Shown here: positions 542 to 18,995 of the stretch, piece by piece
How the letters are laid out: each line of letters starts with the position of its first letter
Numbering within the stretch: position 1 is the first letter of the stretch
DNA from: an uncultured Acidimicrobiales bacterium
Lineage (GTDB): Bacteria; Actinomycetota; Acidimicrobiia; Acidimicrobiales; RAAP-2
DNA: 24,000 bases
Direction of reading: 5' to 3'
Assembly: GCA_963806455.1 (NCBI GenBank)
Contig: CAWDXZ010000007.1
Location: 151,367-175,366, forward strand
Translations under genes and position numbers: made by a program
Notes under the pieces: model-generated
Told to the model about the DNA's origin: nothing
Seen by the model: only the letters and a program-made list of their open reading frames with translations
Databases searched by the model: none

Positions 542-2080
542 GTGGAACGGCTGAGCGGACTGGACGGAGCCTTCCTGTCGTTCGAGTCCCCGACCATCCA
601 CCTCCACATCCTCGGTGCCCTGATCTTCGACCCGTCCGAGGTCGAAGGAGGAGTCGACTTCTGGCGGGTCCGCGACATGGTGGCCGACCGTCTGCACCTG
701 GTTCCGCCCTTCCGGAAGCGGATCGTGGAGGTGCCATTCGGGCTGCAACACCCTTCGATCGTCGACGATCCCGACTTCGACATCGACTACCACGTGCGCC
801 GGGTGGGCCTGCCCGCGCCCGGCGGCCTCGCCGAGCTGGCCGAGCTCGTGGCCGACATCGCCTCCCGCCCCCTCGACCGTCGGCGACCCTTGTGGGAGTT
901 CCACGTGGTCGACGGGCTGGCCCAGGGACGCCTGGCCCTGGTGCCCAAGGTGCACCACTCGATCATCGACGGGGTGTCCGGAGCGGAGATCCTCGCCGCG
1001 TTCTTCGACCTCTCGCCCGAGCCGGCGCCTCGCCGGCTGTTCGGCGGGGCGATGGGGTCCCGCCGGGCCGTTCGGACCCACCGGGGGACCCGGCCACCGG
1101 ACGAACCGGGACGGGCGGAGGCGGGGGAGACCGGCTTCGACCCGGGGTGGGCCGCCGATCCCCTGCCGGGCGAGATGGCAAGGTGGCGCGGGGTGTTGGC
1201 GTCGTTGCCCGCCCAGGCTGACGCACTGGTGCGCACGGCGTCGCGGACGGTGCAGGTAGCCCGAGGTCTCAGCCGGCACAATCGCGAGACGGCCCGCGAC
1301 GTACCCCCTTCGCCGTTCGAGGCGCCCGCCACTTCGATCAACCGGGCCATCTCGTCCCACCGGCGGGTGGCCTGGGCCGAATTGCCGATGAGCGATGTGC
1401 GGCGCATCCGGGAGATCCTCGGGGGGACGGCCAACGACGTGGTGCTCACCGTGGCCGCCGGCGCCATGCGCCGGTTCTTCGACGGCCGGGGAGAGGACCC
1501 GGGGAGCTCTCTGGTCGCGCTGGTGCCGGTCTCGGTCCGGTCCGAAACGGAGCGGGACGCGCTGGGGAATCGCCTGTCGGCCATGCTCGTCTCCCTTGCC
1601 ACGGGGGTGGCGGACGAAGCGGATCGCCTCCGGCACATCCAAGAGGACGTCCGATCGGCCAAGGAGCAGAGCCGTTTTCTCGGATCGGACGTGTTCGCCG
1701 GCTGGGCCCAGGCCGCGCTCCCCGCCGTGGCTTCGCGCATCACCAGGCTGGCGGCCAATCTGCGTCTGTTCGACCGCGTGCCTCCGGTGTTCAACCTCAT
1801 CGTCTCCAATGTGCCCGGCCCGGATTTCCCCCTCTATCTGGCCGGAGCCCGTCTGGTGTCGATGTACCCGCTCGGGCCGATCATCGAGGGTGCCGGGGTG
1901 AACATCACGGTCTTCTCCTACATGGACACCATGTACGTCGGGGTACAGGGCTGTTGGGACCTCGTCCCGGATATCGCCGCCATCGCTCAGGGGATGGCCG
2001 ACTCGCTCCGGGCGCTGGTCGCTGCCACCAACCGCCTGGCCCGGCCGGTGCCCTGGTGGCATGCGGAGTTGCCGGCTTGA
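542..2080 (+). CDS. wax ester synthase / diacylglycerol O-acyltransferase (WS/DGAT) family protein
   Basis: 512-aa ORF starting at GTG 542, directly after the dut stop (536-538) in the same frame. It has the HHSIIDGVSG (HHxxxDG) active-site motif, the N-terminal LSGLDGAFL and the C-terminal NVPGP...LYLAG motifs typical of WS/DGAT. No frame breaks. Confidence 0.88.
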   Translation: MERLSGLDGAFLSFESPTIHLHILGALIFDPSEVEGGVDFWRVRDMVADRLHLVPPFRKRIVEVPFGLQHPSIVDDPDFDIDYHVRRVGLPAPGGLAELAELVADIASRPLDRRRPLWEFHVVDGLAQGRLALVPKVHHSIIDGVSGAEILAAFFDLSPEPAPRRLFGGAMGSRRAVRTHRGTRPPDEPGRAEAGETGFDPGWAADPLPGEMARWRGVLASLPAQADALVRTASRTVQVARGLSRHNRETARDVPPSPFEAPATSINRAISSHRRVAWAELPMSDVRRIREILGGTANDVVLTVAAGAMRRFFDGRGEDPGSSLVALVPVSVRSETERDALGNRLSAMLVSLATGVADEADRLRHIQEDVRSAKEQSRFLGSDVFAGWAQAALPAVASRITRLAANLRLFDRVPPVFNLIVSNVPGPDFPLYLAGARLVSMYPLGPIIEGAGVNITVFSYMDTMYVGVQGCWDLVPDIAAIAQGMADSLRALVAATNRLARPVPWWHAELPA

Positions 2081-2210
2081 GGACGCACTCATGAGCACCG
2101 TACAGCTCTGGCCAGACCCGAAGACGCGCCCGGGCTTGGGGTCGAATGGCGGTGGATGACGACGCCGACCGGGGTCCGGCTGCGGCCGACTGCTAGGATG
2201 CTCGCTCTAC

Positions 2211-2283
2211 GCGGACGTGGCTCAGTTGGTAGAGCATCACCTTGCCAAGGTGAGGGTCGCGGGTTCGAGTCCCGTCGTCCGCT
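2211..2283 (+). tRNA. tRNA-Gly (anticodon GCC)
   Basis: 73-nt cloverleaf read by hand. Acceptor GCGGACG/CGTCCGC. D arm GCTCAGTTGGTAGAGC. Anticodon stem TCACC/GGTGA with loop TTGCCAA (GCC). T arm GCGGG-TTCGAGT-CCCGT. Discriminator T. CCA is not encoded. It marks the switch from housekeeping to accessory genes. Confidence 0.9.
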
Positions 2284-2681
2284 CTCGCCGAAGTCGCAGG
2301 TCATCGGCGGTTGTAGCGGTTGAAATCGGGCTGTGTCTGTCGGTCGTCTGATCCCGGTGTACCACATCCGCACCACATTTTTCTGCGATTTTTCGGCGAG
2401 CGGCCGTTGACCCTCACATTTTGCGTGTGATGCTCAACCGCTTGGTTTCCTAGCGACCAACACCGCCAGGCGTTCCAACATTCTTTGGTTTGCCCGAGCT
2501 GACAGTTGGCGCTCTGGGTGGCTTTGGTTCGTGGGGGCCGGGCTACCCGCTACGAGGGTGATCACGAGTTCGAAGTCGCTGGTCGGCCCTACGAGAAATT
2601 CTTAGTTCGGTCAGGCCCCAGCTGCGTCACATCTCTATGGGACCGCTTTCCGTCTAGCCGCGGCCCAGGAAGGAGGGCCAC

Positions 2682-2987
2682 GTGTCGAACGTGACCCCGT
2701 CAGAGATGCACCACCACGAGCACGCCGTTGAGGTAATCGTACGGAGCCCCGCCGGGACCCCGCACCCCTTCAGCTTCGGGTTCGACGAGCTTGGGGCGCA
2801 GGCCGCCGCCACGGCGATCGCCTACTTCGTGGGCAAGCACGAGATCGAGCCCGGGGACTACGCCCTCGAGCTCGTCCGTGACGGGGTTGCCACCCCGATC
2901 GCCGACACGGCACGGCTCAGCGACTACGACCTGCACAACGGTGACGAGCTGCGGCTCATCCCCGAGCAGCCCCAGGTCGACGGGTGA
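2682..2987 (+). CDS. ubiquitin-like (beta-grasp type) protein with free C-terminal Gly, BilA-like
   Basis: 101-aa ORF. GTG 2682 lies 5 nt after GGAGG (2672-2676). The protein ends ...LRLIPEQPQVDG-stop. Its stop overlaps the next start (GTGA, 2984-2987). It is the first gene of a Ubl-E2-JAB-E1 array. The fold assignment is inferred from size, terminal Gly and context, not from a search. Confidence 0.68.
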   Translation: MSNVTPSEMHHHEHAVEVIVRSPAGTPHPFSFGFDELGAQAAATAIAYFVGKHEIEPGDYALELVRDGVATPIADTARLSDYDLHNGDELRLIPEQPQVDG

Positions 2988-3400
2988 GCCTGCATCCGGC
3001 CCTACTGGTCGAGATGCTGGAAGAGGAGGTGTCGGTCGCCCGGGTTCGCCTGGGCGACCGCATCGCCGGGCTCGACATCGTCGGCACCGACATCATCTGC
3101 ACGCTGGAGGAGACCAGCGTGGGAACGGTATACCTGCGCTTCGCTGCGGCGGACTACGACGCGGAACCCATGAGCTTCGCCGTCGTCACCGAGAGCGGCG
3201 AGATCGCCGAGACAGCGAAGTGGCCAGGCCAGCTGTTCCACTCCATCCATCCCTCGCTCGAGCGCGCCATGGCGTGCGTCGCAGGGGACCTACGAGTATC
3301 ACAGCTTCCCGGGCACACGGCCGACCGCTGGGACGCCCATCGGCGCACGCTGCGCTTCCCCCATCTTCTGGACCACATCGTCACCAAGGCAGGCAAGTGA
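2984..3400 (+). CDS. E2-like ubiquitin-conjugating enzyme homologue (Prok-E2 / BilB-like)
   Basis: 138-aa ORF coupled to both neighbours. It contains FHSIHP(89-90)SLERAMAC(98)VAG. The HP-to-Cys spacing resembles the E2 HPN...Cys active site, with the Cys codon TGC at 3275-3277. It sits between the Ubl and JAB genes. Confidence 0.66.
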   Translation: MSLHPALLVEMLEEEVSVARVRLGDRIAGLDIVGTDIICTLEETSVGTVYLRFAAADYDAEPMSFAVVTESGEIAETAKWPGQLFHSIHPSLERAMACVAGDLRVSQLPGHTADRWDAHRRTLRFPHLLDHIVTKAGK

Positions 3401-3847
3401 TGCTCACCATCCCCATCGTCCATCCTCGTCGAGGCCCGTACGTTCTTCGAGGACCGCGGCGCGCTCGGGTGCGAAGGCACCGCCATGATCGCCGGCACCG
3501 ACGGCGTCGCCACCAAGCTCGTCATCCCCGAGCAGCACGCCAACCCCGTTCCCTATTGCTCGGTCGAGGTGACCCGGCAGGGCAAGAGCGAGCTCGCACT
3601 CGCCCTCGGCCCCGACGACCGCTACGTGGCGCGCATCCACAGCCACCCCGCCCTGGCCTTCCACAGCCCGACCGACGACGCCAACCCGGCCATCACCTAC
3701 CCCGGCGCACTGTCCATCGTCGTCCCCTTCTTCGGGCTCGGCCTTCGACGCGGTCTCGACGCCTGCGCCGTGCTAGTTCGCCGCGACCGGCGGTGGCTCG
3801 AGGTCCCCGCCGGCCCGGACCGCAACGACTTGGTGGTGGCACGGTGA
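3400..3847 (+). CDS. JAB/MPN (JAMM) isopeptidase, BilC-like; 5' end frame-disrupted
   Basis: ORF 3485-3847 carries the JAMM-like HSHPALAFHSPTDD, with H-x-H...S-x-x-D spacing one residue shorter than canonical. The same frame upstream reads ...ILVEARTFFEDRGALGCEGTAMIAG, which would supply the JAMM Glu, but has no canonical start. The coupled ATG at 3400 (TGATG with the E2 stop) is in another frame (MLTIPIV...). One +1 shift at about 3403-3425 is therefore needed. The stop overlaps the E1 start (GTGA 3844-3847). Confidence 0.72.
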
Positions 3848-5403
3848 GCGACCCGCGCCTTTCCTTCGGGCTCGGCGTCGTCATCGGCGCCGGCGACGCT
3901 GTTCTCGAAGCCCTCGACGGTCTCCGCCCAGTGATCCGGGTTGGAGTTGATGTCGACGCCCGTGCTGCGACGGCTGTGGCGGCGCTCTACTCGATGCTGC
4001 TCCGGCTCTTCCCCCACACCGTCCTCGAAGGCGACGCCACCCTCGGCGCCAATCCCTGGGGTGCGACCAGGCTCGGCGAACTCGTGGGCGTGCTCGCTGC
4101 GGCGCGGCCGACTCCGAGCCGGGGGCCCGACCGGGACTTCATCGTCGGCGTTGGCGCCGTCGTCGGTGGCGCCCAGCTGTGGATGGGTGGGGACGACTGG
4201 ACGGCGGACATCGGCCCGAGCCCCCGGGCCATCCGCGGCGGCCGGTTCGGCCTAGGTCTCCAGGCCGCGGCCGCCATGGTTGCGTCGGAGATCGCCAAGG
4301 TGGCGCTGGGTCCCCTCGGGATGCGCCACTACTCATCTCGGTGACGGCGTGGTCTGGAACCTGGCCGACTACCGCCGACGCCCGGCCCCCGACATGCCGC
4401 AGCACCGGACCGCTGCGCTGGACGTCGTGTTCTTCGGCACCGGCTCGGTGGGGTCGAGCGCGGCGGGAGTCCTCACGTGCATCGACGAACTGCACCGGGC
4501 ACGCAGTCCTCGTGGACGGCGACACCTTCGACCCGACGCGCAACACCTACCGCTACCCGACCTCCCTCGGCACGGAGACGGGACCAAAGGCCAGCTGGGT
4601 CAAGGACCTGCTCGTCGCCCGGGGCTGGACTGCCGACGATGTCGTCGGGTCGGCCTCGGACTGGGTGCGCTCGCAGCCCGCCCCGGGGTTCACCGGCATC
4701 GTCGTGTCCTCAGTGGACCGGCCCGACAGTCGCCTGCAGGTGGCCGACGCCATGGCAGCCACGACCCTGAGCGTTGGCGTCGACGGCCTGGCTCTGCACA
4801 TCCAGCGCGAGCACGTCTTCGACGACTTCGCCTGCCCCTACTGCGACTTCGTCTCCCTGGAGCCGCCCATGGGCCGGATCGACTCGTTGGCCGAGCTGCT
4901 CAAGCTCCCCCAGCCCCGAGTGGCACAGCTCCTGGTCGACGGCGACATGCTCACCGCGGCCAGACATCGCCATGGTGGTCGACGCCGGCAGGATCCGCGC
5001 CGAGCGCTCCGAAGAGCTGGTCGGCCGGCGCATCGAAGACCTCATCCGGCGGACGTACGCCGAGATCTCGGTACCCGACGTGGCCGGAGCTCCAACCGCG
5101 GTCAGCGCCGCATACGTCTCGTGGATGGGCGGCATCCTGGTCGCGGCCGAACTGACCAAGGCGGCCATTGGGCTGTCGATGGTGGACCGCCGCCTCGACC
5201 TGGATCTCTCGGGTATCCCGCTCGAGGGAGTTCGGCGTCGGCTTCGTGACACGAGCGGAAACTGCATCTGCGCTTCGCCGCAGCGGTGGCGTTGGGCGAC
5301 AAGACTGTACGGAGAGCGATGGAACTCGACGACCAACAGCGGGCGGGACTCGCGGCCGGAACCCCAGACTGGGCCGCCATCTACATCGGCTGCCGGACGG
5401 TGA
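3844..5403 (+). pseudogene. E1-like (ThiF/MoeB/UBA family) adenylating enzyme, BilD-like; three frame breaks
   Basis: The protein reads across frames 1>2>3>1, with breaks at about 4320-4345, 4490-4500 and 4960. The N-terminal roughly 165 aa is a degenerate Rossmann-like region. GTGSVG nucleotide loop lies at 4436-4453, then LVDGDTFDPTRNTYRY, CPYC (4833-4844), AVSAAYVSWMGGILVAAELTKA and CIC (5263-5271). The 3' end at 5403 is uncertain and overlaps the sigma gene start. Confidence 0.75.
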
Positions 5404-5932
5404 TGTGGCGGGCAGCCTGGCAGGTGCTCGGGCCCGATCACCACTCCACCTTGGGCACTTCCGCGGATGCGATCGTTCACGACACCATGGCGGAGCTGAT
5501 GGAGAAGTCCAACGAACGCGGCATCTCGGCCATCCCACCCGACGTGAAGAGCATCGATGCGTTCTTGTGGACGGCCACCCGGCGGCGCGCCCTGCCGCGT
5601 GGTCGAGCGCTCCCGACGCAAAGAGATGAAGCCGTTCCCCGAGCCCGGGGATCCGGGTGAACCTGCGGAGTTGAAGACGACCATCGAAGCATTTGAGGAC
5701 GCCCTGATCCTTGAGCAACTCGACTCCCATCTCCACAAGCTCACCGACAACGAGCGTCGAGCGTTCATCGGGTACTACAAGCAGGGCCGAACCTACGACG
5801 ACATCGGTGCTGAGCTCGGATGTCACTGACAGGGGGGCCTCCAAGCTGTGCGCGAGAGCCGTCCGTAAGCTGACCGCTGCGGCGGGCATCGAGGTGCACG
5901 AGGACCTGGAGGAGGAAGGAACAGATGGCTGA
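5286..5932 (+). pseudogene. sigma-70 family (ECF-like) RNA polymerase sigma factor; two frame breaks
   Basis: A region-2-like segment (...DAFLWTATRRRAL) in frame 3 continues as VVERSRRKE... in frame 1. This leads to the region-4 HTH LTDNERRAFIGYYKQGRTYDDIGAELG and then, in frame 2, VTDRGASKLCARAVRKL. Breaks lie at about 5585-5600 and 5818-5826. The start is either GTG 5286 or ATG 5319. The stop overlaps the next ATG (ATGGCTGA, 5925-5932). Confidence 0.62.
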
Positions 5933-6608
5933 CGACATCGTCGAAGGCCAGATCACAGAGCTCATCGAGTCCTACGTCGCCCACCTTGACGGAGCGGGAC
6001 CGGCACCTTCTCTCGACGGGCTCGATGCCGCCACTCAGCGTGAGGCCCGCAAAGCCTTTCGTGCCGTTGATGCCGCGTGGCGTAGCGACATCGAGATCCC
6101 TCCGCTTGAGGAGGATCCAGTCGCCCTCGCCTTGGGCTTCGTGCCCCGTCGCGACGCCGGAATCGTTCGTCGTCATCTCCGGCAAGTTGGTGAAGAGGGC
6201 GCGCCAGGGGCAGCGGGCTCAAGACGAGCGACGTTGCAAACCTCCTGAAGTCGGTGGGGCTGCCGGCCGCAGACCAGAAGTGGCTGGGCCGGCTCGAACG
6301 GGCACCCGTGCAAGAGGTCGCACTTGACGTCGCCACGGGACTCGCCAAGGTGCTGGGTGTCTCGCCCGACGCCATTCGCTGGCGCAGGACAAGGACGTCG
6401 GCCCATTCGCGGAGTGGCTGTATTCGGACGAGTTCGACGCAGCTGTTCGCCGCGTGGGTTGACGAACAAGCAGGTCGAGACGCTTCCCGTGGACCTCGCA
6501 CCCCGAGCACGGAGGGAGCTCCTCGCTGCGGCCCGCCGGAGCGACGGTGATGGAGGACCGGCCCTATGGGTGCAGATGCTCAGGTCCGTTCTCGACGAGT
6601 TGTCCTGA
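5925..6608 (+). pseudogene. XRE-family helix-turn-helix protein; about four frame breaks
   Basis: The HTH core reads ISGKLVKRAR..GSGLKTSDVANLLKSVGLPAADQKWLGRLERAPVQEVALDVATGLAKVLGVSPDAI. The full protein can only be read by switching frames 3>1>2>1>3 at about 6150-6170, 6208-6212, 6370-6376 and 6452-6458. It lies immediately upstream of an ImmA-type peptidase, the classic HTH/ImmA pairing. Confidence 0.55.
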
Positions 6609-6611
6609 GCC

Positions 6612-7654
6612 ATGCCCCGGTCTCTGCGCTCCGAGCCAACGAGCCCGAGGCGATGGGCTGATCGGCTGGTCGGTGCCCTCGACGCCGGGGTGCGTGATCG
6701 CCATCGCCAACGATCCGCGGCGCGCCATCGAGGAACACCTCGGTCTGCGGGTGGTCGAACAGGGGACCCTTGGCGAGCGCGGCAATGGCGGGTGGTGCGA
6801 TGGGCTGTCGATCCTCGACGAGGGCGTCATCTTCTTTGCCCCGACAGTGAACTCGAAGAGGGCGAACTTCACCCTCTGCCACGAAGTGGCGCACTACCTC
6901 GTCGAAGAGCACACGGACTCCGAGACGTTGGATTGGGTGGCAGATCAGGCGGATCCCGACCAGGTCATCGAGCACGTCTGCGACCTTGTCGCCTCCCGGC
7001 TATTGGTGCCCGACGCCATGGTTGCCGCCGTTCTCGAAGACGTCGGCCCCGGCGGCCCGGCGGTGGCCGAGCTGTTCGCCCAATCCGAGGCGTCCCGTGA
7101 AGTATGCGCGATCGCTCTGGCCGATCGACTGGGTTGCGATGGCTTCATCGCACTGATCAACCGGGACGAGGATGTCGTCACATTCGCCTCGCGTGCCCAC
7201 GAGGGCCGGCCCTATCCACCGCGCCGGGCTGCTGTGCCGTCAGGGCATCCGCTGCTGCGACTCTCAGATCGGCGAGTCGGCCACGGCCGAGGCGTGGTGG
7301 CCCTGGCCGGACGGTTCCCTACAGCCCTTCTACCAGAGCGCGCTGCGTGACGGTCGTTGGGTCTATGCCGTCCTCGCCGCCCACGACCTGTGGCAGGTGA
7401 CGCAGTTTCATCCCGCTCCCGCAGAGCGACCCACGGTGACGGTGCCGGAGGGAAGGCTTACATGTCCTTGTGGATACAGGGGCGCAGCCCGGGGGTTCCC
7501 GTGTTCGACCTGTCACAAGATCACATGTCCGGAGTGCCACGAGTGCGACTGCGACCGCAAGGAGCGCATCGCCCGGAAGCCGTGCAAGCGATGCACTGTG
7601 AGCGTCCCCGTGGCCCAGCTTGACGAGGACGGGTACTGCACGGGGTGCCAATAA
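6612..7654 (+). pseudogene. ImmA/IrrE-family (DUF955) zinc metallopeptidase with C-terminal Cys-rich zinc-ribbon-like domain; two frame breaks
   Basis: HEXXH motif in FTLCHEVAHYLVEEH. ATG 6612 lies 3 nt after the HTH gene stop. Frame 3>1 at about 6683-6690 (a GGGG run) and frame 1>2 somewhere in 7200-7265. The last 65 aa (7457-7654) contain 12 Cys arranged as six C-x(1-2)-C pairs. Confidence 0.7.
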
Positions 7655-8419
7655 CGCATCAAGGCGGACTGCTCTACTTGCGCAACGGATGGCACAGTCG
7701 ATCAAGTTGAGCTTGGGTGTAGAAAGCTGTCCCAATGAATCGATTTCAGGGGTCACAGTGTGGTGCATGATCCGGCCAAGGACCCGTCGGTCGCGGTGCG
7801 ATCCGCGATCGGAAGCAACTGAAGCATGGACTATCTTCGCCATGGCCTCTGCCGGTTCCGTCGGCTCGTACTCGGGGTATACCAGACCTTGGAGCACGTC
7901 TAGTGCCCGGATGTCGATTCCCTTTTCGATGATCGGGATGATAGGAACCCGTGGTCCTTCGCTATGCCGATCTCACGTACACCAAGTTCGTGCTCGTCGA
8001 CGTGATGAGCACGACAAACGCCTTACTCCGGTAAGTCGCCGCTCGGGCCTTTTCGGCGAGGAGCACTCCAGGCTGGGGGTTCCTTGGCGAGGTAGACGGT
8101 GATGCCAAGCACCTCAATCTGACGGGCTACCAGCTAGATGTGAGGCTTGTCGGTAGTTGAATGGCTGAAAATGCCTCGAGATGTGGCACGAGCGGCACCT
8201 GGCCCGGAGTGTTGCTGAACGTCAGCGGGGGCCACTTCTCAGGGGGCGTGACCAAGTGTGCGCGGTCATCGTTCAATTGTACGAGAAGGGTGTGCCGTGA
8301 GGCCGCTCAACGGTTTCGAGTGCCTTACGATCATTTTCGGCGCCCCTGTTGGTTCGAGAATTCCATCCGGAGCGACGACCACCCACCTTCTAGTGGAATG
8401 AACGAGCGACGGCTGACAG

Positions 8420-9760
8420 CTACACGCGCACGATGCGTTCGAGATCCTCGAGTTGTCGCCAGAGCTCGACGTGGGCCAGCCATCCGGCGAACTGGTCGTC
8501 CTCCGATCCGACCGGTCGTTCCTCTGTGTCGTGCTTGTGAGATGCGAGTGCGTCCCCCACCCCATCTCGCGAGACGAGGATGACTCCGAGTTGGTGGCGA
8601 CTGGTCATGACGCTGAGCCTGCCGGGCGCGAGCTCGAACATCGTGGGCTCCGGGATACCGGACAGTGTGTGCTTGGCCACCATGATCGGGCGTTGCAGGC
8701 CCTGCCAGACCTCGGCGGTGTTGGTCACCGTGTCGGGTCCAATGCCCAATCGACGGAGCCGCGACCGGACCTGCTCGTTGCTGGCAACGTGGGGATCGAC
8801 GTATCCCACATCCGCATCCGATAGCTGGCGGACACCGACCCAATCGGGTAACCGCTCGAGCATCCGCGCGATCAGGTGAGCCGAGAGTTCAGCCAGCTCG
8901 GGGTCGGACTCCGACAAGTCCCGGACCGAAGGGGGGAGCACGACGGCCACCATGCTGGCCCCCGCGGCAATGAGGTCGAGGACGGGATCGACTGGGTCAC
9001 CCATGCCCACGAGGCCGAAGGACAGACGGCGCTCCTCCGGATCCGGACCCGAGCGGAACGGTAGGTTCGGGTAGAAGGCGGGTTGGACAAGATTGACAGT
9101 GTCCTGCGGGAACCGCCATGTGGCCGGGAGGATCTCGTGCGGCAGGCCTGGGTGGCGGCGCAGCATTTCCCGGGGTGCGGCCCAATGGACCTTGTGGCGG
9201 GCAGCCTCGTAGCGTGCGAGGTCGCCACGGACCAGTGGACGCAACTGCCCAGGGTCCCCGACGAGCAAGCTCCGTGGTGCGAGGTGCAACAGCAGCATCA
9301 CGTCCTTGTAGGGCACCTGGTAGGCCTCGTCGCAGACGAGTAGGTCGAACTCGCCCTCCTCGAGCTGGGGCACCATTATCGAGGCCTTGCGCACCGTCAT
9401 TACGGTGATGGACCGATCACCGGGAAGATCGGCTGCCCGGGTGCCGAGCGTGATCTGCGGAGCACCGACAAACTCGGGTGGTGGTGGTCGCTCGGCCGAG
9501 TGGATGAGGGTGATGGGCACGGGGTAATCCCTGGCAAGTCGTCGGACGAGGTCGTAGACCTGCTCGTTCTGGAACGCAACGACGAGCGCCCTCGAACCTC
9601 CATCGGCGGCAACGGCGGCAACCATTTCCACCAAGTCGGTCTTCCCGGCGCCTGGGGGGCTGTCAACCACAACGGCATGGTGGTTCTCATGCAGCACGAG
9701 TTCGAGGATGCGGCGGCGAGCGTCCTCGTCCGCCTGGGCGATGGTCGGGGCGTCGATCAT
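8420..9760 (-). CDS. SF1 helicase-like ATPase (DNA2/Upf1- or RecD-like core, about 446 aa)
   Basis: Intact 446-aa ORF. Walker A SPPGAGKT (GAGKT at 9638-9652), Walker B/motif II LLVCDEAYQ, motif III VGDPGQL, then WRFP, QGLQRP and TSRH near the C-terminus. The ATG overlaps the upstream stop (ATGA, 9757-9760). It is the last gene of a four-gene operon. Confidence 0.85.
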   Translation of the reverse strand: MIDAPTIAQADEDARRRILELVLHENHHAVVVDSPPGAGKTDLVEMVAAVAADGGSRALVVAFQNEQVYDLVRRLARDYPVPITLIHSAERPPPPEFVGAPQITLGTRAADLPGDRSITVMTVRKASIMVPQLEEGEFDLLVCDEAYQVPYKDVMLLLHLAPRSLLVGDPGQLRPLVRGDLARYEAARHKVHWAAPREMLRRHPGLPHEILPATWRFPQDTVNLVQPAFYPNLPFRSGPDPEERRLSFGLVGMGDPVDPVLDLIAAGASMVAVVLPPSVRDLSESDPELAELSAHLIARMLERLPDWVGVRQLSDADVGYVDPHVASNEQVRSRLRRLGIGPDTVTNTAEVWQGLQRPIMVAKHTLSGIPEPTMFELAPGRLSVMTSRHQLGVILVSRDGVGDALASHKHDTEERPVGSEDDQFAGWLAHVELWRQLEDLERIVRV

Positions 9761-11169
9761 GGGCGTCGAAGCCTCCGTGCGCGGGCTAGGAGGTCGTCGG
9801 CAGGTGGTGGTACAGCCGGTTGCGGCGGCAGATCGTCCGCGAAGACGAGCGGCGTGTTGGCCGTCTGCATGGTTCGTCGGGCTCTGCCCATCTGCACACT
9901 GAAGTCAATGGGTGAGCTGTCGGTGAGCTCCAGGTCCATCCCCAACCTCCAACGATCGACGGTGCGGACCCCCGTCGAGACGTCGAAGGTCAAGAGCCGG
10001 TCGTCGCCGTCCTCGTTCTCGTCGATCAGGCGCAGATCGACGCTGTCCGTGATGGCGTGGAGCCGAGTGCCACGGCGGAGACGGAGCACTGGCTGGTCGG
10101 TACGGACGACCACGCTGCAGGGTCGGAACTTGGGCCGCCTGCCCCAGGTCACCGACTCGAGCGTGCCGGCGACGATCCGACCCTTGGAGCGGGCTACGCG
10201 ACGGGCGAAGCCGTCACCTCGGACGACGACATCCTCGGCCACATCGGCCGCATGCTCATTCTCGTCGACCATCCGGGCGAGAGCGGGCGCCCGGCTGGGG
10301 GGCGCCACCGGATTGGTGATCCGGTAGGCGAGCCGCTCCTTGCTCGCGGCGACGAGGGTCTCGATGCCAGGGAGTGGGGTGAGCGGCAGATCGAAGATGG
10401 CCCGGCGACACGCCATTAGCAGGTCCCACTCCGCTCGCGCCCCGCCACGCAGGAGCTCCTCGATCTCGGCCCGCGCTCGGGCAGCGGCCGCGTCGCGGCC
10501 TTTTGCGGTCCGCCGGAGTGCCTCGACGCGGTCGTCCACTTCACGCACGAGGACCCCACTGGCCGGCACGAGAGCACGCGCCTGGGCGGTCTCGAGGGCC
10601 GTACGGCCGTCGTCGGGCTCGACCCAGGCCAAGAGCGCCCCGAGGTGACCGTCCTCGACAGGTGACTGACCCGTGACCACGTGCTCACGCAGCACGTCGG
10701 CGCCCACCGCGACGGCTTGTTGGCCCTCGAAGCGAGCCTCCGTGGCGATGGTGATGCAGTGCCGACCCAGGGTACGCAGCTCCTCGGAGGCCTCACGGTT
10801 GGTCCGATAGCGGTGACCGAAGACCTCCATCAGGCTGAGGGCGCTCCCGTGGGGCAACCACACCCGGGGGAGTTCGTCGGCCGTGACCTGGTCGCGTAGG
10901 TACTGATCGAGCGAGACGGCCATGCGCTCGAGGCCCTCGACGTCGCGCGACAGCGGGTTCCAGCGCACCACCACGTCCGGCTCCTCACCGATGACACCGA
11001 AGGCGACAGACTGGAGGACTTCCTCGCTCACCATCTTGATCGGCGCGATCCCGAAAGCACGCGGGGGATCGTCGGCCAACCGGCGCGTCTCGACGACGGG
11101 CACGGCGCGGTCCTCTCGTCGGGCCACGAGGCGGGCCACCACGGTGGCGGTCTGGAGGGCCGAGGTCAT
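9757..11169 (-). CDS. hypothetical protein (470 aa), third gene of the nuclease-helicase cassette
   Basis: Intact ORF with ATGA overlaps at both ends (11166-11169 and 9757-9760). Codon usage matches its neighbours. I could recognise no catalytic or nucleotide-binding motif. It has a central Ala/Arg-rich helical-looking stretch (RRTAKGRDAAAARARAEIEELLRGG). Confidence 0.75.
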   Translation of the reverse strand: MTSALQTATVVARLVARREDRAVPVVETRRLADDPPRAFGIAPIKMVSEEVLQSVAFGVIGEEPDVVVRWNPLSRDVEGLERMAVSLDQYLRDQVTADELPRVWLPHGSALSLMEVFGHRYRTNREASEELRTLGRHCITIATEARFEGQQAVAVGADVLREHVVTGQSPVEDGHLGALLAWVEPDDGRTALETAQARALVPASGVLVREVDDRVEALRRTAKGRDAAAARARAEIEELLRGGARAEWDLLMACRRAIFDLPLTPLPGIETLVAASKERLAYRITNPVAPPSRAPALARMVDENEHAADVAEDVVVRGDGFARRVARSKGRIVAGTLESVTWGRRPKFRPCSVVVRTDQPVLRLRRGTRLHAITDSVDLRLIDENEDGDDRLLTFDVSTGVRTVDRWRLGMDLELTDSSPIDFSVQMGRARRTMQTANTPLVFADDLPPQPAVPPPADDLLARARRLRRP

Positions 11170-12236
11170 GCCAGTCGCCGCCGGAGTTCGACGGGCTGGA
11201 TCCCGACCAGGGGCGCCGCTTCCAACAGGGAACCGAGCAGGGCCTCCTCGTCATCGGTGGCCGGCTCGACCTCGCCCACGACCAGGGCTCGGACGTAGTC
11301 GAGATCCATTCCAGAGAGGAGCCGGCTGGCGGTGTCGCCGAGGAGGGCGGGCGTCTGGCCCGAGCGCTCGAAGCAGTGGGCGGCCATGACGCAGGACTGG
11401 TGGCAACCCTCGGTGGGGTGGATGGCCAGGTCGTCGACCAGGTTGGCCAGGTTCCCGCCCCCTTCGCGCTCGAGTTCGTCGAGGCGCTGGCGGACCCGAT
11501 CGATGACCTCGAGTGCTCGTCGGAGCTCCAGGATGGCACCGTCGAGGGCCTCCTCAGGCGGGTCGGCGGCCCGCAGGCCGAACGGGGTTGCCATCACGAA
11601 GATGGCCGTGTTCGAGACCCGGTCGCCAAGCCCGACCAACGTCGCCTCGGCTCGGAAGGCCAGGATCTGGGCGGCGGCCTGCCGGCGGGTCAGATCGAGG
11701 TCGGCCGGGTCGGCGATGTTGTCGCGGACGATGAAGGACTTCTCCTCACCGGGCTTGAAGAAGCCGGTCCGAGGATCGAGGACGGCGAAATCCGGGCTGA
11801 CGTACTCGAAGCAGCCCGGCGAGCCGGTCGGGAGGCACAGTTGCGGCTGGATCACGATGTCGGGCACCGCCCGACCGTGCGCCAGGTCGTCGAGGACCCG
11901 CCGGGTCCTGGTCAGCCGGACGGCACGCATGGTGTTGACCGGCCCCGGCACCTCGTCGGCGAAGTTACGAACCACCATCGTGTCGGGATCGCGCCCGACC
12001 AGCGGGCCGATGACGCGACGCAGCTCGGCGGCGTTGTTCTCGTGCAGGTGGGATTCGAACTTCGAGCCGCGACGGCGGGCGGCCACCCGTTCGCCGTATT
12101 CCTTCGGGTACTCCTCACCGGTGACGGCCCGGTAGAAATCGGGCTCGCGTACCCGTCGGACGGCCATGGCGGCCTGCAGGTCGCATTCGGGGTTCTTCGA
12201 GACCCTCACCAGGCCGCGGGTTCCTGAGAGGGTCAC
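11166..12236 (-). CDS. Cas4/RecB-like PD-(D/E)XK nuclease with putative 4-Cys (Fe-S) cluster
   Basis: GTG at 12236 overlaps the upstream stop (GTGA, 12233-12236), giving a 356-aa product. The longer 413-aa ORF in the track is an Arg/Pro-rich 5' extension. Nuclease motifs are GSKFE, SPD(149)FAVLD, GE(164)EK(166)SF (11739-11747) and RRQAAAQILAF (QxxxY-like). Cys18 plus C278-x3-C282-x5-C288 (11373-11405) mimic the Cas4/AddB cluster layout. Confidence 0.7.
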   Translation of the reverse strand: MTLSGTRGLVRVSKNPECDLQAAMAVRRVREPDFYRAVTGEEYPKEYGERVAARRRGSKFESHLHENNAAELRRVIGPLVGRDPDTMVVRNFADEVPGPVNTMRAVRLTRTRRVLDDLAHGRAVPDIVIQPQLCLPTGSPGCFEYVSPDFAVLDPRTGFFKPGEEKSFIVRDNIADPADLDLTRRQAAAQILAFRAEATLVGLGDRVSNTAIFVMATPFGLRAADPPEEALDGAILELRRALEVIDRVRQRLDELEREGGGNLANLVDDLAIHPTEGCHQSCVMAAHCFERSGQTPALLGDTASRLLSGMDLDYVRALVVGEVEPATDDEEALLGSLLEAAPLVGIQPVELRRRLA

Positions 12237-13003
12237 GACCCCGTCGCCTTTTCGCCCGGGGGGAGCAGGATCAGCGTCGAATCGGGGACGCCGAAGAGTC
12301 GACCGTGGTCGTCGAGACGTGCTGAGAGCTGGTCGGCGGCGACCTCGCGGTTGGTGCGATCCGTGGGCAGGAGCTCGTCGAGGAGCATCTCGGCAGCCAG
12401 GCGCCAAGTCTCGAGATCGAACTTGCCACGGCGCACCTCGAGGCCCGGCACGTCGCGGGCGTGGTCGGCGGCGAGGATGGCCATCATCTCGGGATCGACG
12501 ACGCGCTCATTGCCGCCGGCGATCCGACACAGGGCTGCCGTCATGTGGAGGTGCTGCACCCTCCCGGTCGTCGGCGCCACGACCCGCTCGGAGAGTGGCC
12601 AATCAGAACGCCCCCACAGGCGTTTGATCGCCTCCCCCCGGTCAGCCACCAGACCGTGACAAAGCCATACCGGCCGATGCCGGCCCTTGCCGAAAGCCGA
12701 AGCCTCGTCGTTGCTGAGAGATCCGAAACGGGTGGAGCTCAACTTGCGGCCGTAACGGGCTTGGGCGAAGAGCGCGAGCTCCCGCGAGAAGGCCATGGTC
12801 CCGAGGTCGGCGAGACTGTCGAGTAGGAGGTTCCGAACGGGAACCTGCCGCTTGGTTCCTCTGGCTGGCTCGTTCGGGCCTGCTGGAGCACTCGCCCTTC
12901 CGGACCCCGAGGCAAGGCGGGCGTCGATCTCCGCCAATTGTTGCGCCAGGCGGGCCCTCTCCCTCTCGAGCTCGACTTTCTCTTCATTGGCGAACTTGTC
13001 CAT
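12233..13003 (-). CDS. hypothetical protein (256 aa), first gene of the nuclease-helicase cassette
   Basis: Intact ORF starting at ATG 13003 with no Shine-Dalgarno sequence. The N-terminus looks coiled-coil (EEKVELERERARLAQQLAEIDARL), followed by a Gly/Pro/Ala linker and a roughly 190-aa domain with no motif I recognise. Its stop is coupled to the nuclease start. Confidence 0.7.
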   Translation of the reverse strand: MDKFANEEKVELERERARLAQQLAEIDARLASGSGRASAPAGPNEPARGTKRQVPVRNLLLDSLADLGTMAFSRELALFAQARYGRKLSSTRFGSLSNDEASAFGKGRHRPVWLCHGLVADRGEAIKRLWGRSDWPLSERVVAPTTGRVQHLHMTAALCRIAGGNERVVDPEMMAILAADHARDVPGLEVRRGKFDLETWRLAAEMLLDELLPTDRTNREVAADQLSARLDDHGRLFGVPDSTLILLPPGEKATGS

Positions 13004-13183: not shown

Positions 13184-14337
13184 ATGGGAACGGGCTGGAG
13201 AGTGGCGGGGCTATTCGCGGGTATCGGCGGGATCGAGCTCGGACTGGAGCGAGCAGGGATGCATACCAAGGTGCTCTGCGAGCGCTGGGAGCCGGCCCGT
13301 GCCGTCCTCGAACACAGGTTCCCCGGCGTCCGACTGACCAACGACGTTCGTGAGCTGAAGAAGCTCCCAGCCGTGGATCTCGTGGCCGCCGGCTTCCGTG
13401 TACGGATCTCTCGCAAGCCGGACAGATGAAAGGCATCACCGGAGCGGCATCCGGACTGGTCGGAGAGGTCTTCCGGCTACTCGAGGGCCGACGAGTGCCG
13501 TGGGTCCTCCTGGAGAACGTTCGCAACATGCTGGTTCTCGATGGTGGCAGAGCGATGAGCTTCCTCGTCTCGGAGCTGGAGGCGCTCGGCTATCGCTGGG
13601 CGTACCGTCTAGTCGACTCGCGCTTCACGGGGGTCCCGCAGCGCAGGCAACGGGTGATCCTCGTTGCGACGACCGAAGGCGACCCCCGAGAAGTGCTCTT
13701 CGCCGACGACGCCGGGGATCCTGGCGACTCATGGTTCGAGTCGGACGTCCACGGCTTCTACTGGACGGAGGGCCTCAAGGGTCTGGGTTGGGCTCGTGAC
13801 GCGGTCCCCACGCTGAAGGGGGGATCGACGATCGGGATCCCCTCGCCACCGGCCATCTGGAACCCCCACGCACCCGCTGGCCAGCGGATCATCGTCCCTT
13901 CGGTGACTGAGGCCGAGCAGATGCAGGGCTTCGAGGTGGGATGGACGGCGCCATCGGACTTGGTCTCGGGCCGCAAAGGGACGCGTTGGAAGCTCGTGGG
14001 GAATGCGGTGACCGTCGGGGTCTCCGAATGGGTCGGGGATCGACTTCGGTCACCGGGTCGTTTCGAGGGACAGGCCCGACCGCTCGATGGATCCGATCCG
14101 TGGCCGAAGGCGGCATGGGGCGTCAACGGCGAACGGTGGGCGGTCGAGGTGTCCATGTGGCCGACCAACGAGCCGTATCGCCATCTCGGAGACGTCGTCG
14201 ACCTGGACGACGTGGTGCCACTGTCCCTGCGGGCCGCTGCGGGGTTCTACGAGCGGGCTATGCGCAGCTCACTGCGGTTCGACGAGCGATTCCTGGACGA
14301 CGTCGCCTCCCACATCGACGTCGTGACGGCGGCCTGA
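13184..14337 (+). pseudogene. DNA (cytosine-5)-methyltransferase; single frame break inside the catalytic PC motif
   Basis: Motif I LFAGIGGIELGL. In frame 2 the protein reads VAAGF and then runs off. Frame 1 reads PCTDLSQAG..., then ENV, QRRQRV and GNAVTVGV. GGCTTCCGTGT at 13391-13401 lacks one C of the expected GFPC codons, so the break is at about 13396. The start is ATG 13184 or GTG 13139. Confidence 0.85.
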
Positions 14338-14790
14338 GGACCTCGATCGGACAGCCGCCTCCACCCGTTCGGCAGCAGCACTCGGCATTTCGTGTTCCCA
14401 GACCCGGACGACCAGCCACCCCGCCGTATCCAATTCAATGTCGGTGTCCCGGTCCCGCCGCACGTTCGCCTCGAGCTTGTCGATCCACCAGGCCCGGTTG
14501 GCCTTGGGGACGGTCCCGTGTTCGGGGCACCGGTGCCAGAAACAGCCGTCGACGAAGACGGCCACCCTGGATCGAGGGAATGCAATGTCGACCCGGCGTC
14601 GCCGCCCGGTGATCCCGATGTCCACCCGGTAACGCAGCCCCCTCGCCCACAGCTCGGAGCGAAGAGCCCGTTCGGGCAATGTGTCCCGGCGCCGCTGGGT
14701 CTTCATCCTGCGTTCGGTATCGGGACTGGAGGCGCTCGGGCGACTGCGCTGCCTCGCTTCTCGTGATCCCATCCCTCGGTCGCGTTCCAT
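14269..14790 (-). CDS. vsr: very-short-patch repair endonuclease
   Basis: DTLPERALRSELWARGLRYR...VDIAFPRSRVAVFVDGCFWHRCPEHG...NRAWWIDKLEANVRRDRD...GWLVVRVWEHE matches the Vsr family by eye. I place the start at ATG 14790 because the ORF's upstream extension looks spurious. Its 3' end overlaps the convergent C5-MTase gene by 69 nt. Confidence 0.85.
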   Translation of the reverse strand: MERDRGMGSREARQRSRPSASSPDTERRMKTQRRRDTLPERALRSELWARGLRYRVDIGITGRRRRVDIAFPRSRVAVFVDGCFWHRCPEHGTVPKANRAWWIDKLEANVRRDRDTDIELDTAGWLVVRVWEHEMPSAAAERVEAAVRSRSSGRRHDVDVGGDVVQESLVEPQ

Positions 14791-15741: not shown

Positions 15742-16003
15742 TCCTGGCGTTGACGCGCTCGTTCCTCCTTCTCCTCGAACTGAAAGAGGGCTGGCTCGGG
15801 CCGACTGCGGCCTGCGCCTTCGTCTAGCTGCCCCGTTGGGTCATTAGGGCGGCTACGGCGAGACTTCGACCACCTCGGCCGCCATCGGCATCCTCAGCCT
15901 GAGCCTTCCGCCATGTTGGTTTGAGCCCTGTGGATGCCGGCAGCTGATCCAAGCATCAGGATTTCGTGATCGTCCAGTTGCTGATCTCAGTCCGAGCGTC
16001 CTT

Positions 16004-17460: not shown

Positions 17461-17957
17461 TCGAACCGGGGCACCGAACGTGGGTTCTGCCTCGTCGGGG
17501 CCCTCCGACTCGCCATCGGGCGGGGATTTCGGTTCGACAGCAACAGCACTACCCAGACTGCGGCGAAGGTCATCACCAGAGCGAAGGCGCCTTGGCCGTA
17601 TTTACCCTGGGCAACGAGGAGGCCCGCCACACCCCCGCCCGCCACAATCAGGATCTGGCCGACAATCGGCCCTGGCGCCGGTCTGGACCGGCGTCGGTGG
17701 GAATGCGCAGGTCTGCGGTCACGCCCTCTCACCCAGGCCTCCCTCGGTCCACCGCTCCGGCTCGCGTGCGAGTTAGGTTGACCTGCGCCCCTCGTTAGCG
17801 TGTTGCGTGTATCTCCTCTGGCCGGCGGACGGTGGTTCTGTCAGACGCTAGGCCCATTACTCAGCGACCACAACTGGTTTGTCAGTATTGATCACTTATG
17901 CTGACTGTGAAATCATGAGCAATCCATGTGACCGAATGATCACGAAGGAGGTGCGCG

Positions 17958-18831: not shown

Positions 18832-18995
18832 CGTCGCTGCCTCGAAAATGGGTCTACAATCCGCAAGACACCAAGCGAGATACTGTGCGGTGCTTACCGC
18901 TTCGATCGGCGCGACAGTAGGACAGAGGACGGCGAAGAAACTGAGGAAGCATCAGTTATCCGCCAGTTTGGTGAACGGCTTCAACGCGATGCCGC

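What the first reader, a model, noticed from the sequence alone, without database searches (positions are those of the whole stretch)
5286..7654. Sigma factor + XRE HTH + ImmA/IrrE peptidase welded to the 3' end of the Ubl operon
The Ubl-E2-JAB-E1 set does not end with a terminator. The E1 3' end overlaps the sigma-factor start. The sigma stop overlaps the HTH start (ATGGCTGA, 5925-5932). The ImmA ATG follows the HTH stop by 3 nt. This gives seven genes with essentially no intergenic space.

HTH plus ImmA-like peptidase pairs are established damage-responsive switches. Examples are ImmR/ImmA, DdrO/IrrE, and CapH/CapP upstream of CBASS and other defence operons. Those pairs are normally divergent and upstream. 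Here the pair is downstream, co-transcribed and accompanied by its own ECF-like sigma factor. It could form a feed-forward regulatory module for a ubiquitin-like defence system. Alternatively it is an independent neighbouring cassette packed tightly by chance.
Basis: inference. Interest (0 to 1): 0.66.

Follow-up and report, generated by a model that had tools for sequence, protein, structure and literature searches.

The report
Ubiquitin-like defence operon with built-in sigma switch
A bacterial ubiquitin-like (Bil) defence operon carries its own three-gene controller (sigma factor, DNA-binding protein, protease) at its 3' end; this layout recurs in many actinobacteria, but the copy in this window is broken by at least 12 single-base frameshifts.

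Summary
Window 2682-7654 (+) holds seven co-directional, overlapping or abutting genes: bilA (Ubl), bilB (E2), bilC (JAB), bilD (E1), an ECF-type sigma factor, an XRE-HTH protein and an IrrE/CapP-like M78 peptidase. dN/dS against the closest relative is 0.20, so these are assembly errors or very recent decay.

The linkage is not chance. 34 of 40 informative Bil loci found through the E1 carry the trio directly downstream. In the peptidase tree the Bil-linked trios form one clade.

The trio is also a portable module. In a sister clade a strict ECF-type promoter, CTAAC-N17-CGACTAC, occurs twice per locus. One copy lies before the sigma gene. The other overlaps the peptidase stop codon and points into variable cargo: Type I Bil, Bub, CBASS, HerA. 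In the Bil clade a single related promoter sits upstream of bilA, so the Bil genes lie inside the sigma factor's autoregulatory loop.

CapH/CapP association with Bil, and an occasional accompanying sigma factor, are already published. I rate this a new variant of a known kind, of moderate interest.

The parts
2593..2605 (.). Small imperfect palindrome GAGAAATTCTTAG abutting the -35-like element. Candidate operator for the XRE protein.
   Evidence: Equivalent palindromes occupy the same position in relatives: L001 CACGAAATTTCTTG, L098 CAGGGAATTCCTTG, L008 CGGAAATCTTTCCG. Function is inferred.
2606..2638 (+). Candidate ECF-type promoter of the seven-gene operon: TTCGGT (2606-2611), 18 nt, CATCTCTAT (2630-2638).
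   Evidence: The TTCGG block is conserved in alignments of upstream regions from window, L001, L002, L005 and L086. A sister subclade has a crisp TTTCA[CT]-N15-CGTCTA at the same place. For the window itself this is only a candidate.
2682..2987 (+). bilA: ubiquitin-like protein, 101 aa, ending in PQVDG. Intact.
   Evidence: The family profile matches ubiquitin at E about 1e-6. The C-terminal Gly is invariant.
2984..3400 (+). bilB: E2-like protein, 138 aa. Intact.
   Evidence: The profile hits PDB 8tyz_C E2(BilB) at E = 0.002 across the catalytic Cys. Cys98 and His111 are invariant and 13 residues apart, as in BilB C138/H151.
3400..3847 (+). bilC: JAB/JAMM deubiquitinase-like protein with one frameshift near 3416-3419.
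   Evidence: Pfam Prok-JAB E = 1.9e-4. The L002 orthologue hits PADLOC BilC at 3.4e-9. The JAMM motif HSHPALAFHSPTD can be read in the sequence. The frame change shows.
3844..5403 (+). bilD: E1-like adenylating enzyme with three frameshifts near 4333, 4495 and 4960.
   Evidence: The family profile hits PDB 8tyz_A E1(BilD) at E = 8e-27 over nearly its full length. GxGSVGS, CPxC and CxC motifs are present. tblastn gives four HSPs in frames 1, 2, 3, 1.
5319..5932 (+). ECF-type sigma factor (alternative start GTG 5286) with two frameshifts near 5594 and 5817. It overlaps the bilD 3' end by 85 nt (118 nt from 5286).
   Evidence: Pfam Sigma70_r4 on the middle fragment. Orthologues score above the TIGR02937 sigma70-ECF cut-off. 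N-terminal alignment; frames.
5925..6608 (+). XRE-family HTH protein (CapH/DdrO-like) with an N-terminal extension. At least four frameshifts between 6156 and 6479.
   Evidence: The L003 orthologue has HTH_31 at 1.7e-8. The AF2 model's best, weak matches are DdrO, Stl, CapH-NTD and SinR. The conserved DPVAxxLGLVPD motif lies just before the HTH. Frames.
6612..7654 (+). ImmA/IrrE/CapP-like M78 metallopeptidase with an extra C-terminal Cys-rich (zinc-ribbon-like) domain. Two frameshifts near 6695 and 7270.
   Evidence: Pfam Peptidase_M78 at 1.9e-6. Intact 346-aa homologues reach 91% identity. HExxH and 12 Cys are conserved. The AF2 model (pLDDT 86) matches PprI/IrrE at E = 3e-16 and CapP at 1e-7. 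PADLOC capP at 2.7e-15.

Best explanation
The region is a seven-gene operon. A divergent, Type II-like BilABCD ubiquitin-like conjugation (anti-phage) system is fused at its 3' end to a three-gene controller: an ECF sigma factor, a CapH/DdrO-like XRE protein and an IrrE/CapP-like metallopeptidase.

**Proposed mechanism**
1. The operon is read from an ECF-type promoter upstream of bilA that its own sigma factor recognises. The Bil genes therefore sit inside a positive autoregulatory loop.
2. In the resting state the XRE protein holds the loop off, most simply by binding a palindrome abutting the -35 element.
3. A signal activates the peptidase. By analogy with PprI/IrrE and CapP, this signal is single-stranded DNA or DNA damage produced during phage infection.
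4. The peptidase cleaves the XRE protein. The sigma factor then drives a self-amplifying burst of Bil expression.

**Status of each step**
- Shown here by comparison: gene identities, tight linkage, co-inheritance, and a conserved ECF-type promoter at the operon head.
- Inferred: promoter-sigma pairing, repression by XRE, cleavage, and the nature of the signal.
- In this window the copy carries at least 12 frameshifts. These are probably assembly errors. If they are real, this copy is dead.
For: **Gene identities**
- E1 profile against PDB BilD: E = 8e-27.
- E2 against BilB: E = 0.002, with the Cys/His pair conserved.
- Ubl against ubiquitin, with a terminal Gly.
- bilC orthologue against PADLOC BilC: 3.4e-9.
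- Sigma orthologues against TIGR02937 sigma70-ECF: above cut-off.
- Peptidase against PADLOC capP: 2.7e-15, and fold matches to PprI-ssDNA (8sln, E = 3e-16) and CapP.

**Linkage**
- Intact seven-gene clusters with overlapping junctions occur in Cellulomonas soli, Amycolatopsis, Actinosynnema and many metagenomes.
- 34 of 40 E1-seeded loci have the trio downstream.
- Bil-linked peptidases form one clade.

**Promoters**
- In the sister clade, CTAAC-N17-CGACTAC gives 63 hits in 4.0 Mb, against roughly 2 expected by chance (my own estimate, uniform base composition).
- All 63 lie either before the sigma gene or at the ImmA stop, pointing into the cargo.
- In the Bil clade a single TTTCA[CT]-N15-CGTCTA lies 60-75 nt upstream of bilA (18 loci) and none lies before the sigma gene.
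- Palindromes abut the -35 element.

**Selection**
- dN/dS between window and L001 is 0.20, and below 0.55 in all 15 in-frame segments.

**Literature**
- CapH/CapP de-repress adjacent immune operons when ssDNA activates CapP.
- 15% of Type II Bil operons carry CapH/CapP.
Against: - No transcript, binding or cleavage data exist for this family.
- The window's own promoter is only a degenerate candidate: TTCGGT...CATCTCTAT.
- The XRE protein has its HTH in the middle rather than at the N-terminus, does not hit a PADLOC capH model, and gives only weak fold matches (E about 0.07).
- The peptidase has an extra Cys-rich domain of unknown role.
- The window copy has at least 12 frameshifts, so in this organism the system may be non-functional.
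- Operator-like palindromes vary in sequence and position between loci.
Confidence: 0.6

Rival explanations
1. Same seven-gene operon, but the XRE-domain protein acts mainly as an anti-sigma factor. It sequesters the ECF sigma factor through its N-terminal helical extension and/or C-terminal domain. The peptidase frees the sigma factor by cleaving the XRE protein. This would be a cytoplasmic, protease-gated ECF switch rather than operator-based repression.
For: - The gene order sigma, partner, protease mirrors the usual co-transcription of ECF sigma and anti-sigma genes (established ECF knowledge).
- The XRE protein has an N-terminal extension of about 85 aa that is absent from canonical CapH, whose HTH is N-terminal (PDB 7t5u).
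- Its most conserved element is a short linear motif, DPVAxxLGLVPD, in a low-confidence linker. That would fit a cleavage or docking site.
- An unrestrained autoregulated sigma factor needs a direct brake.
Against: - The fold search found no anti-sigma-domain-like match, only HTH repressors.
- The HTH is conserved, and palindromes lie next to the promoter.
- The N-terminal extension is missing in at least one family member (L085).
Confidence: 0.2
2. The trio is not a Bil regulator. It is the immunity/induction module of the integrative mobile element that carries the island (ImmR/ImmA-like, as in ICEBs1), or an independent neighbouring cassette. Its position next to Bil would then be incidental.
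For: - The locus lies in a mobile island: tRNA-Gly at 2211-2284, a split integrase at 18996-19809, and methylases.
- Relatives are flanked by relaxases, T4SS genes and integrases.
- In four loci a TrwC relaxase lies directly upstream of the trio.
Against: - 34 of 40 E1-seeded loci keep the trio directly after bilD, while the flanking genes differ.
- Bil-linked trios are monophyletic.
- Junctions overlap or abut.
- The only conserved promoter lies before bilA.
- In the sister clade the second promoter points into defence cargo, not into integrase or transfer genes.
Confidence: 0.07
3. In this particular genome the cluster is a decaying pseudogene array. The frameshifts are real mutations, so nothing here functions, whatever the intact family does.
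For: - At least 12 frame-disrupting indels fall in 5 kb, while three neighbouring ORFs of 413-470 aa (8420-12407) are intact.
- Other island genes (integrase, C5 methylase) are also split.
Against: - dN/dS is 0.20 in every segment, and the corrected frames contain no stop codons.
- All frame-disrupting differences from L001 are single-base insertions in the window, which looks more like a technical error signature than a natural mix of insertions and deletions.
- The closest relative L001, also a 'contig_N' metagenome assembly, carries different indels.
Confidence: 0.3

Closest known systems
Type II BilABCD (CEHH/6C) ubiquitin-like conjugation operons (Chambers et al., bioRxiv 10.1101/2023.09.26.559546; PDB 8TYZ/8TZ0)
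   Same: - Gene order Ubl-E2-JAB-E1.
- E1 homologous to BilD over its full length (E = 8e-27).
- E2 with a catalytic Cys and a His 13 residues downstream.
- Ubl ending at or just before a conserved Gly.
- JAMM-motif peptidase.
- Located in mobile or defence islands.
   Different: - A very divergent actinobacterial branch. Pfam has no ThiF or E2 hit, and only BilC hits the PADLOC Bil models, which here matched a canonical Type I operon.
- The published set is mostly Rhizobiaceae.
- In that set the regulator pair, when present, is upstream and divergent in all but one case. Here it is downstream and co-directional, and a sigma factor accompanies it.
CapH/CapP controllers of adjacent immune pathways (Lau et al., bioRxiv 10.1101/2022.04.27.489752)
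   Same: - XRE-HTH protein plus HExxH M78 peptidase with the IrrE-like fold.
- Associated with CBASS, Bil and Bub.
- The paper notes 24 CBASS systems in which capH/capP sit alongside a sigma-70-family sigma factor.
   Different: - The sigma-containing version was only mentioned, not analysed.
- Here the peptidase carries an extra Cys-rich C-terminal domain.
- The HTH protein has an N-terminal extension.
- The module has its own ECF-type promoters.
- In the Bil clade the cargo lies upstream, inside the same operon.
IrrE/PprI-DdrO of Deinococcus
   Same: The best structural match of the peptidase model is PprI bound to ssDNA (8sln_A, TM 0.73). DdrO is the top, though weak, match of the HTH protein.
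   Different: IrrE/DdrO control a chromosomal DNA-repair regulon. No sigma factor is involved, and the two genes are not in one operon with their targets.
ImmR/ImmA of ICEBs1 and related prophage or ICE immunity modules
   Same: Repressor plus anti-repressor metalloprotease on a mobile element, induced by DNA damage.
   Different: ImmR/ImmA regulate element excision and transfer and lie next to int. Here the conserved partner is a defence cargo and a sigma factor, not integrase or transfer genes.
DdvS/DdvA: ECF sigma and anti-sigma control of a CBASS-CRISPR defence island in Myxococcus (PMC11506125; title and abstract only)
   Same: An ECF sigma factor dedicated to switching on anti-phage systems.
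   Different: There the brake is a transmembrane anti-sigma factor. Here it is a cytoplasmic XRE protein paired with an IrrE-like protease.

Membership tests
Type II BilABCD | Gene order Ubl-E2-JAB(DUB)-E1 in one operon | tested here: met
   Window 2682-5403. The same order holds in all related loci.
Type II BilABCD | E1 homologous to BilD (IAD-AAD-CYS architecture, Rossmann motif, Zn-binding cysteines) | tested here: met
   Profile A3 against PDB 8tyz_A E1(BilD): E = 8.1e-27, profile positions 45-500 aligned to chain residues 53-510. GxGSVGS, CPxC and CxC are invariant.
Type II BilABCD | E2 (BilB) with a catalytic Cys and a conserved His 13 residues downstream | tested here: met
   Profile A4 against 8tyz_C: E = 0.002 across the Cys. 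C98 and H111 are invariant. The sequence-level support is weak.
Type II BilABCD | Ubl with a beta-grasp fold and a conserved C-terminal Gly, with or without a short tail | tested here: met
   The profile matches ubiquitin at about 1e-6. PQVDG is terminal in 9 of 11 sequences and followed by a tail in 2.
Type II BilABCD | Ubl-target conjugation and anti-phage activity | not testable with these tools
   Requires biochemistry and phage assays.
CapH/CapP | CapP: HExxH M78 peptidase with the IrrE-like three-domain fold | tested here: met
   HExxH is invariant. PADLOC capP 2.7e-15. Foldseek: PprI 3e-16, CapP 1e-7. An extra C-terminal Cys-rich domain is present.
CapH/CapP | CapH: XRE HTH at the N-terminus plus a C-terminal oligomerisation domain | tested here: inconclusive
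   The HTH is present (HTH_31 at 1.7e-8 in the L003 orthologue) but lies centrally, after an extension of about 85 aa. No PADLOC capH hit. Fold matches are weak.
CapH/CapP | Encoded upstream of and divergent from the regulated operon, sharing its promoter region | tested here: not met
   Here the pair is downstream, co-directional and overlapping. The canonical layout is described.
CapH/CapP | ssDNA-stimulated cleavage of CapH by CapP, de-repressing the operon | not testable with these tools
   Inferred by analogy only.
ECF (group 4) sigma factors | Only sigma-2 and sigma-4 domains, about 180-200 aa | tested here: met
   TIGR02937 scores 57-64 bits against a cut-off of 42.9. Pfam r2 and r4 hit on orthologues. 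The window fragment hits r4.
ECF (group 4) sigma factors | Autoregulated promoter with an AAC-type -35 and a CGT/CGA-type -10 | tested here: met
   - Sister clade: CTAAC-N17-CGACTAC upstream of the sigma gene in 31 of 36 loci.
- Bil clade: TTTCA[CT]-N15-CGTCTA upstream of bilA.
- For the window itself only a degenerate candidate exists.
- The sigma-promoter pairing is inferred.
ECF (group 4) sigma factors | Co-transcribed cognate anti-sigma factor | tested here: inconclusive
   The only candidate is the XRE protein. No anti-sigma-like fold was detected.
ImmR/ImmA (ICE or prophage immunity) | Adjacent to the integrase at the element end and controlling excision or transfer genes | tested here: not met
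   The conserved neighbours are the sigma factor plus defence cargo. Integrase and relaxase neighbours vary from locus to locus.

The most novel reading that the evidence does not exclude
The sigma/XRE/peptidase trio would be a self-contained, horizontally portable 'plug-in' transcription switch of a kind not yet described. It would consist of an ECF sigma factor whose brake is a CapH-like protein, acting as repressor, anti-sigma factor or both, and that brake would be destroyed by an IrrE-like, ssDNA-sensing protease. The module carries its own cognate promoters. It drives whichever defence cargo is attached: downstream via a second promoter overlapping the peptidase stop codon, or, in the Bil clade, inserted between promoter and sigma gene. 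This would be a new mode of ECF regulation and a general design rule for how actinobacterial mobile elements keep toxic immune systems silent yet inducible in any host.
Probability: 0.25. Interest if true: 0.75.

Novelty: new variant of a known kind. Interest (0 to 1): 0.55.

Why it matters
Ubiquitin-like (Bil, Bub) and CBASS systems can harm their host, so how they are kept off and then switched on is an open question. Published work covers repressor/protease pairs (CapH/CapP), WYL repressors and a kinase/STAS pair. The sigma-containing version was mentioned once and never analysed.

The comparative data here give a concrete wiring diagram that can be tested:
- A cognate ECF-type promoter motif.
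- Its two positions in the sister clade.
- The Bil genes placed inside the autoregulatory loop.
- Cultivable strains with intact clusters, such as Cellulomonas soli, Amycolatopsis, Actinosynnema and Microbacterium.

The data also extend BilABCD to a divergent actinobacterial branch that most domain models miss. The window also shows that raw-sequence reading can pass over a run of frameshifts.

Tried and rejected
- BLASTN of 2400-8200 against the plasmid and phage collections found no match.
- The 19-sequence ImmA alignment was too diverse for the genome scan. A 9-sequence subset worked.
- A GC3 filter for calling genes in related islands failed because the islands have lower GC. It was replaced by all-against-all ORF clustering.
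- A promoter-like string overlapping the window's ImmA stop (7649-7682, CAATAAC...CTCTAC) looked like the sister clade's second promoter. I rejected it: the spacing is off, and neither L001 nor any other Bil-linked locus conserves it.
- I searched for an att-type direct repeat of the tRNA-Gly 3' end inside the window. None was found.
- The sigma-70 promoter and intrinsic terminator scan of 2080-8500 found nothing.
- The fold search of the XRE model, looking for an anti-sigma-like domain, returned only weak HTH-repressor matches.
- The Streptomyces coelicolor GI-6 'self-contained ECF regulon' paper was checked and is unrelated: different anti-sigma factors, metabolic cargo.
- Reading the trio as a stand-alone operon (L085, 670-bp upstream gap) was revised once the second promoter pointing into downstream cargo was found.

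Full report
**1. What is in the sequence**

The window is high-GC (0.57-0.73). From 2682 to 7654 on the + strand, GC3 periodicity and three-frame translation show continuous coding.

The mechanical ORF list gives only fragments after 3400. tblastn with intact homologues resolves this. The proteins align along the window in successive frames:
- bilD in frames 1, 2, 3, 1.
- sigma in frames 3, 1, 2.
- ImmA in frames 3, 1, 2.
- The HTH protein in at least three pieces.

- bilA 2682-2987.
- bilB 2984-3400.
- bilC 3400-3847.
- bilD 3844-5403.
- sigma 5319 (or 5286) to 5932.
- HTH 5925-6608.
- ImmA 6612-7654.

Every junction overlaps or is 3 nt apart. No terminator-like or sigma-70-like site lies inside 2080-8500.

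**2. The frameshifts**

The closest relative is L001, an ENA metagenome contig. It is 88.9% identical over 2595-7653. The alignment shows 37 indels.

The indels that break frames in the window are all single-base insertions, and they are not in homopolymers. They lie near 3416, 4333, 4495, 4960, 5594, 5817, 6156, 6212, 6444, 6479, 6695 and 7270.

Codon-level comparison in the homologue-defined frames gives dN/dS = 0.20 overall, and below 0.55 in each of 15 segments. The corrected frames contain no stop codons.

L001 has its own, different indels. Elsewhere in the window the integrase and a C5 methylase are also split, yet three ORFs of 413-470 aa are intact.

I read the frameshifts as assembly errors, or at most very recent decay. 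I cannot decide between these without the reads.

**3. Identity of the first four genes**

Pfam is almost silent on them. Family profiles built from intact orthologues are clear:
- The E1 profile hits PDB 8TYZ chain A, E1(BilD), at E = 8e-27 over nearly its full length.
- The E2 profile hits BilB at E = 0.002 around the catalytic Cys. Cys98 and His111 are invariant and 13 residues apart, as described for BilB C138/H151.
- The Ubl profile matches ubiquitin and ends in an invariant PQVDG.
- The JAB protein carries HSHPALAFHSPTD, and its orthologue hits PADLOC BilC.

This is a divergent, Type II-like BilABCD system.

**4. Identity of the last three genes**

- *Sigma.* Orthologues exceed the TIGR02937 sigma70-ECF cut-off.
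- *HTH protein.* It has a weak HTH_31/HTH_3 domain in the middle, an N-terminal helical extension, and a strikingly conserved DPVAxxLGLVPD motif in a low-confidence linker. Its best, weak fold matches are DdrO, Stl, CapH-NTD and SinR.
- *Peptidase.* The family is typically 335-350 aa, with 132 representative clusters at E <= 1e-30.
  - HExxH and 12 C-terminal cysteines are conserved.
  - The AF2 model has pLDDT 86.
  - Its first ~255 residues match PprI/IrrE (8SLN with ssDNA, E = 3e-16, TM 0.73) and CapP (7T5T, E = 1e-7).
  - PADLOC calls it capP at 2.7e-15.

**5. Is the linkage real?**

*Forward test.* An ImmA-seeded scan of one genome per species returned 47 full-length family loci, all Actinomycetota. 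ORF clustering of these with four loci fetched earlier shows sigma, XRE and ImmA together in 49-51 of 51 loci. The Bil quartet lies upstream in 12 of them.

*Reverse test.* An E1-seeded metagenome scan gave 49 loci, or 41 after removing redundancy. Of 40 with enough sequence downstream, 34 carry the trio immediately after bilD.

*Exceptions.* One exception has a divergent upstream HTH-M78 fusion. Another has a different sigma-like gene after the E1.

*Phylogeny.* In a neighbour-joining tree of the peptidase, the Bil-linked trios form one large clade.

Flanking genes differ from locus to locus: conjugation genes, integrases, restriction-modification systems, transposases. The seven genes are therefore a co-inherited unit, not a chance neighbourhood.

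**6. The trio is a portable controller with its own promoters**

In the sister clade a strict motif, CTAAC-N17-CGACTAC, gives 63 hits in 4.0 Mb of fetched sequence. About 2 would be expected by chance on a uniform-composition estimate.

All 63 fall at two kinds of position:
- P1 lies 20-100 nt upstream of the sigma gene.
- P2 overlaps the ImmA stop codon (the TAA lies within CTAAC) and points into the next genes. In two loci the second copy is instead divergent, facing a SMODS/CBASS cyclase.

The cargo behind P2 includes:
- Type I BilABCD (PADLOC 4e-24 to 3e-113).
- Type II Bub (Multi_ubiq, DUF6791-ThiF, DUF6527).
- CBASS (patatin + CD-NTase + Cap2; Cap15).
- HerA.
- DUF3892.

In the Bil clade there is no conserved promoter after ImmA and none before the sigma gene. 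In one subclade (18 instances) a single TTTCA[CT]-N15-CGTCTA lies 60-75 nt upstream of bilA. It accounts for 18 of 23 hits in 4 Mb, and the remaining 5 are consistent with chance.

The window's own subclade has a less crisp equivalent: TTCGGT at 2606-2611 and CATCTCTAT at 2630-2638. A small palindrome at 2593-2605 precedes it and recurs in relatives.

The simplest reading is that Bil was captured between the sigma-dependent promoter and the sigma gene.

**7. Mechanism**

The mechanism is as given under best explanation: ECF-style positive autoregulation, held off by the XRE protein and released when the IrrE/CapP-like protease, activated by ssDNA or damage, cleaves it.
- *Shown by comparison:* composition, linkage and promoter conservation.
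- *Inferred:* the sigma-promoter pairing, the target of the XRE protein (DNA or sigma), the cleavage, and the signal.

The anti-sigma variant remains open (rival 1).

**8. Comparison with the literature**

- Chambers et al. report CapH/CapP next to 15% of Type II Bil operons, upstream and divergent in all but one case.
- The Bub paper reports CapH+CapP at 31% of Bub operons.
- Lau et al. note in one sentence that 24 CBASS systems carry a sigma-70-family sigma factor beside capH/capP. Examples include Bradyrhizobium.
- I found no paper that analyses the sigma-containing module, its promoters, or the downstream-fused Bil arrangement.

**9. Verdict**

- Observation: partly confirmed. The layout is right, but the genes are frameshifted.
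- Interpretation: supported.
- Novelty: a new variant of a known kind.
- Interest: moderate.

Noticed in passing
window 2211-2284 (+): A tRNA-Gly (GCC) lies between the chromosomal WS/DGAT gene (542-2080) and bilA. It is probably the integration site of the island that carries the cluster. No matching att repeat was found inside the window.
   Followed up: partly
window 18996-19809 (-): A tyrosine recombinase (Phage_integrase) is split across two overlapping ORFs by a frameshift. An HTH_17 (excisionase-like) ORF follows at 19941-20771.
   Followed up: partly
window 13426-14612 (+): A C-5 cytosine DNA methylase matches only Pfam profile positions 81-165 in one frame. It appears truncated or frameshifted.
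   Followed up: no
window 20955-22326 (-): Two N6/N4 DNA-methylase-like segments lie 871 nt apart. A 158-nt direct repeat at 73% identity (21175-21332 and 22046-22203) links them, suggesting tandemly duplicated methylase genes.
   Followed up: no
window 8420-12407 (-): Three intact, translationally coupled genes: a 446-aa AAA_30/AAA_11 helicase-like ATPase (weak PADLOC hits to Mokosh MkoA/MkoC) and proteins of 470 and 413 aa with no family hit. This may be another defence system next to Bil.
   Followed up: partly
window 2595-7653 versus L001 5998-11040: All frame-disrupting differences from the closest relative are single-base insertions in the window, outside homopolymers. That one-sided pattern looks technical rather than mutational.
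   Followed up: partly
L015-L051, about 5-45 nt downstream of the second promoter (P2): The leader of the cargo transcript starts with a conserved TGAGRG and forms a hairpin whose arms covary between loci (mean MFE z = -1.6, against -0.24 for the P1 leaders). It could be an RNA element or an operator.
   Followed up: partly
L015, L017, L023, L031 (+59..+226 after P2); ORFs of similar size at nearby offsets (+32 to +85) in L028, L029, L032, L034, L038, L041, L042, L046: A small ORF of about 51-56 aa is the first gene after P2 in many sister-clade loci. It was not characterised and not tested for homology between loci.
   Followed up: no
L105 2022-3224 (-): A Bil locus that lacks the downstream trio instead has a divergent upstream 400-aa HTH_31-Peptidase_M78 fusion. 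This is the canonical CapH-CapP position, in fused form.
   Followed up: partly
window 15500-19000: GC falls to 0.57-0.60, against 0.70-0.73 at the window ends, consistent with foreign (island) DNA. The ORFs there have no family hits.
   Followed up: no
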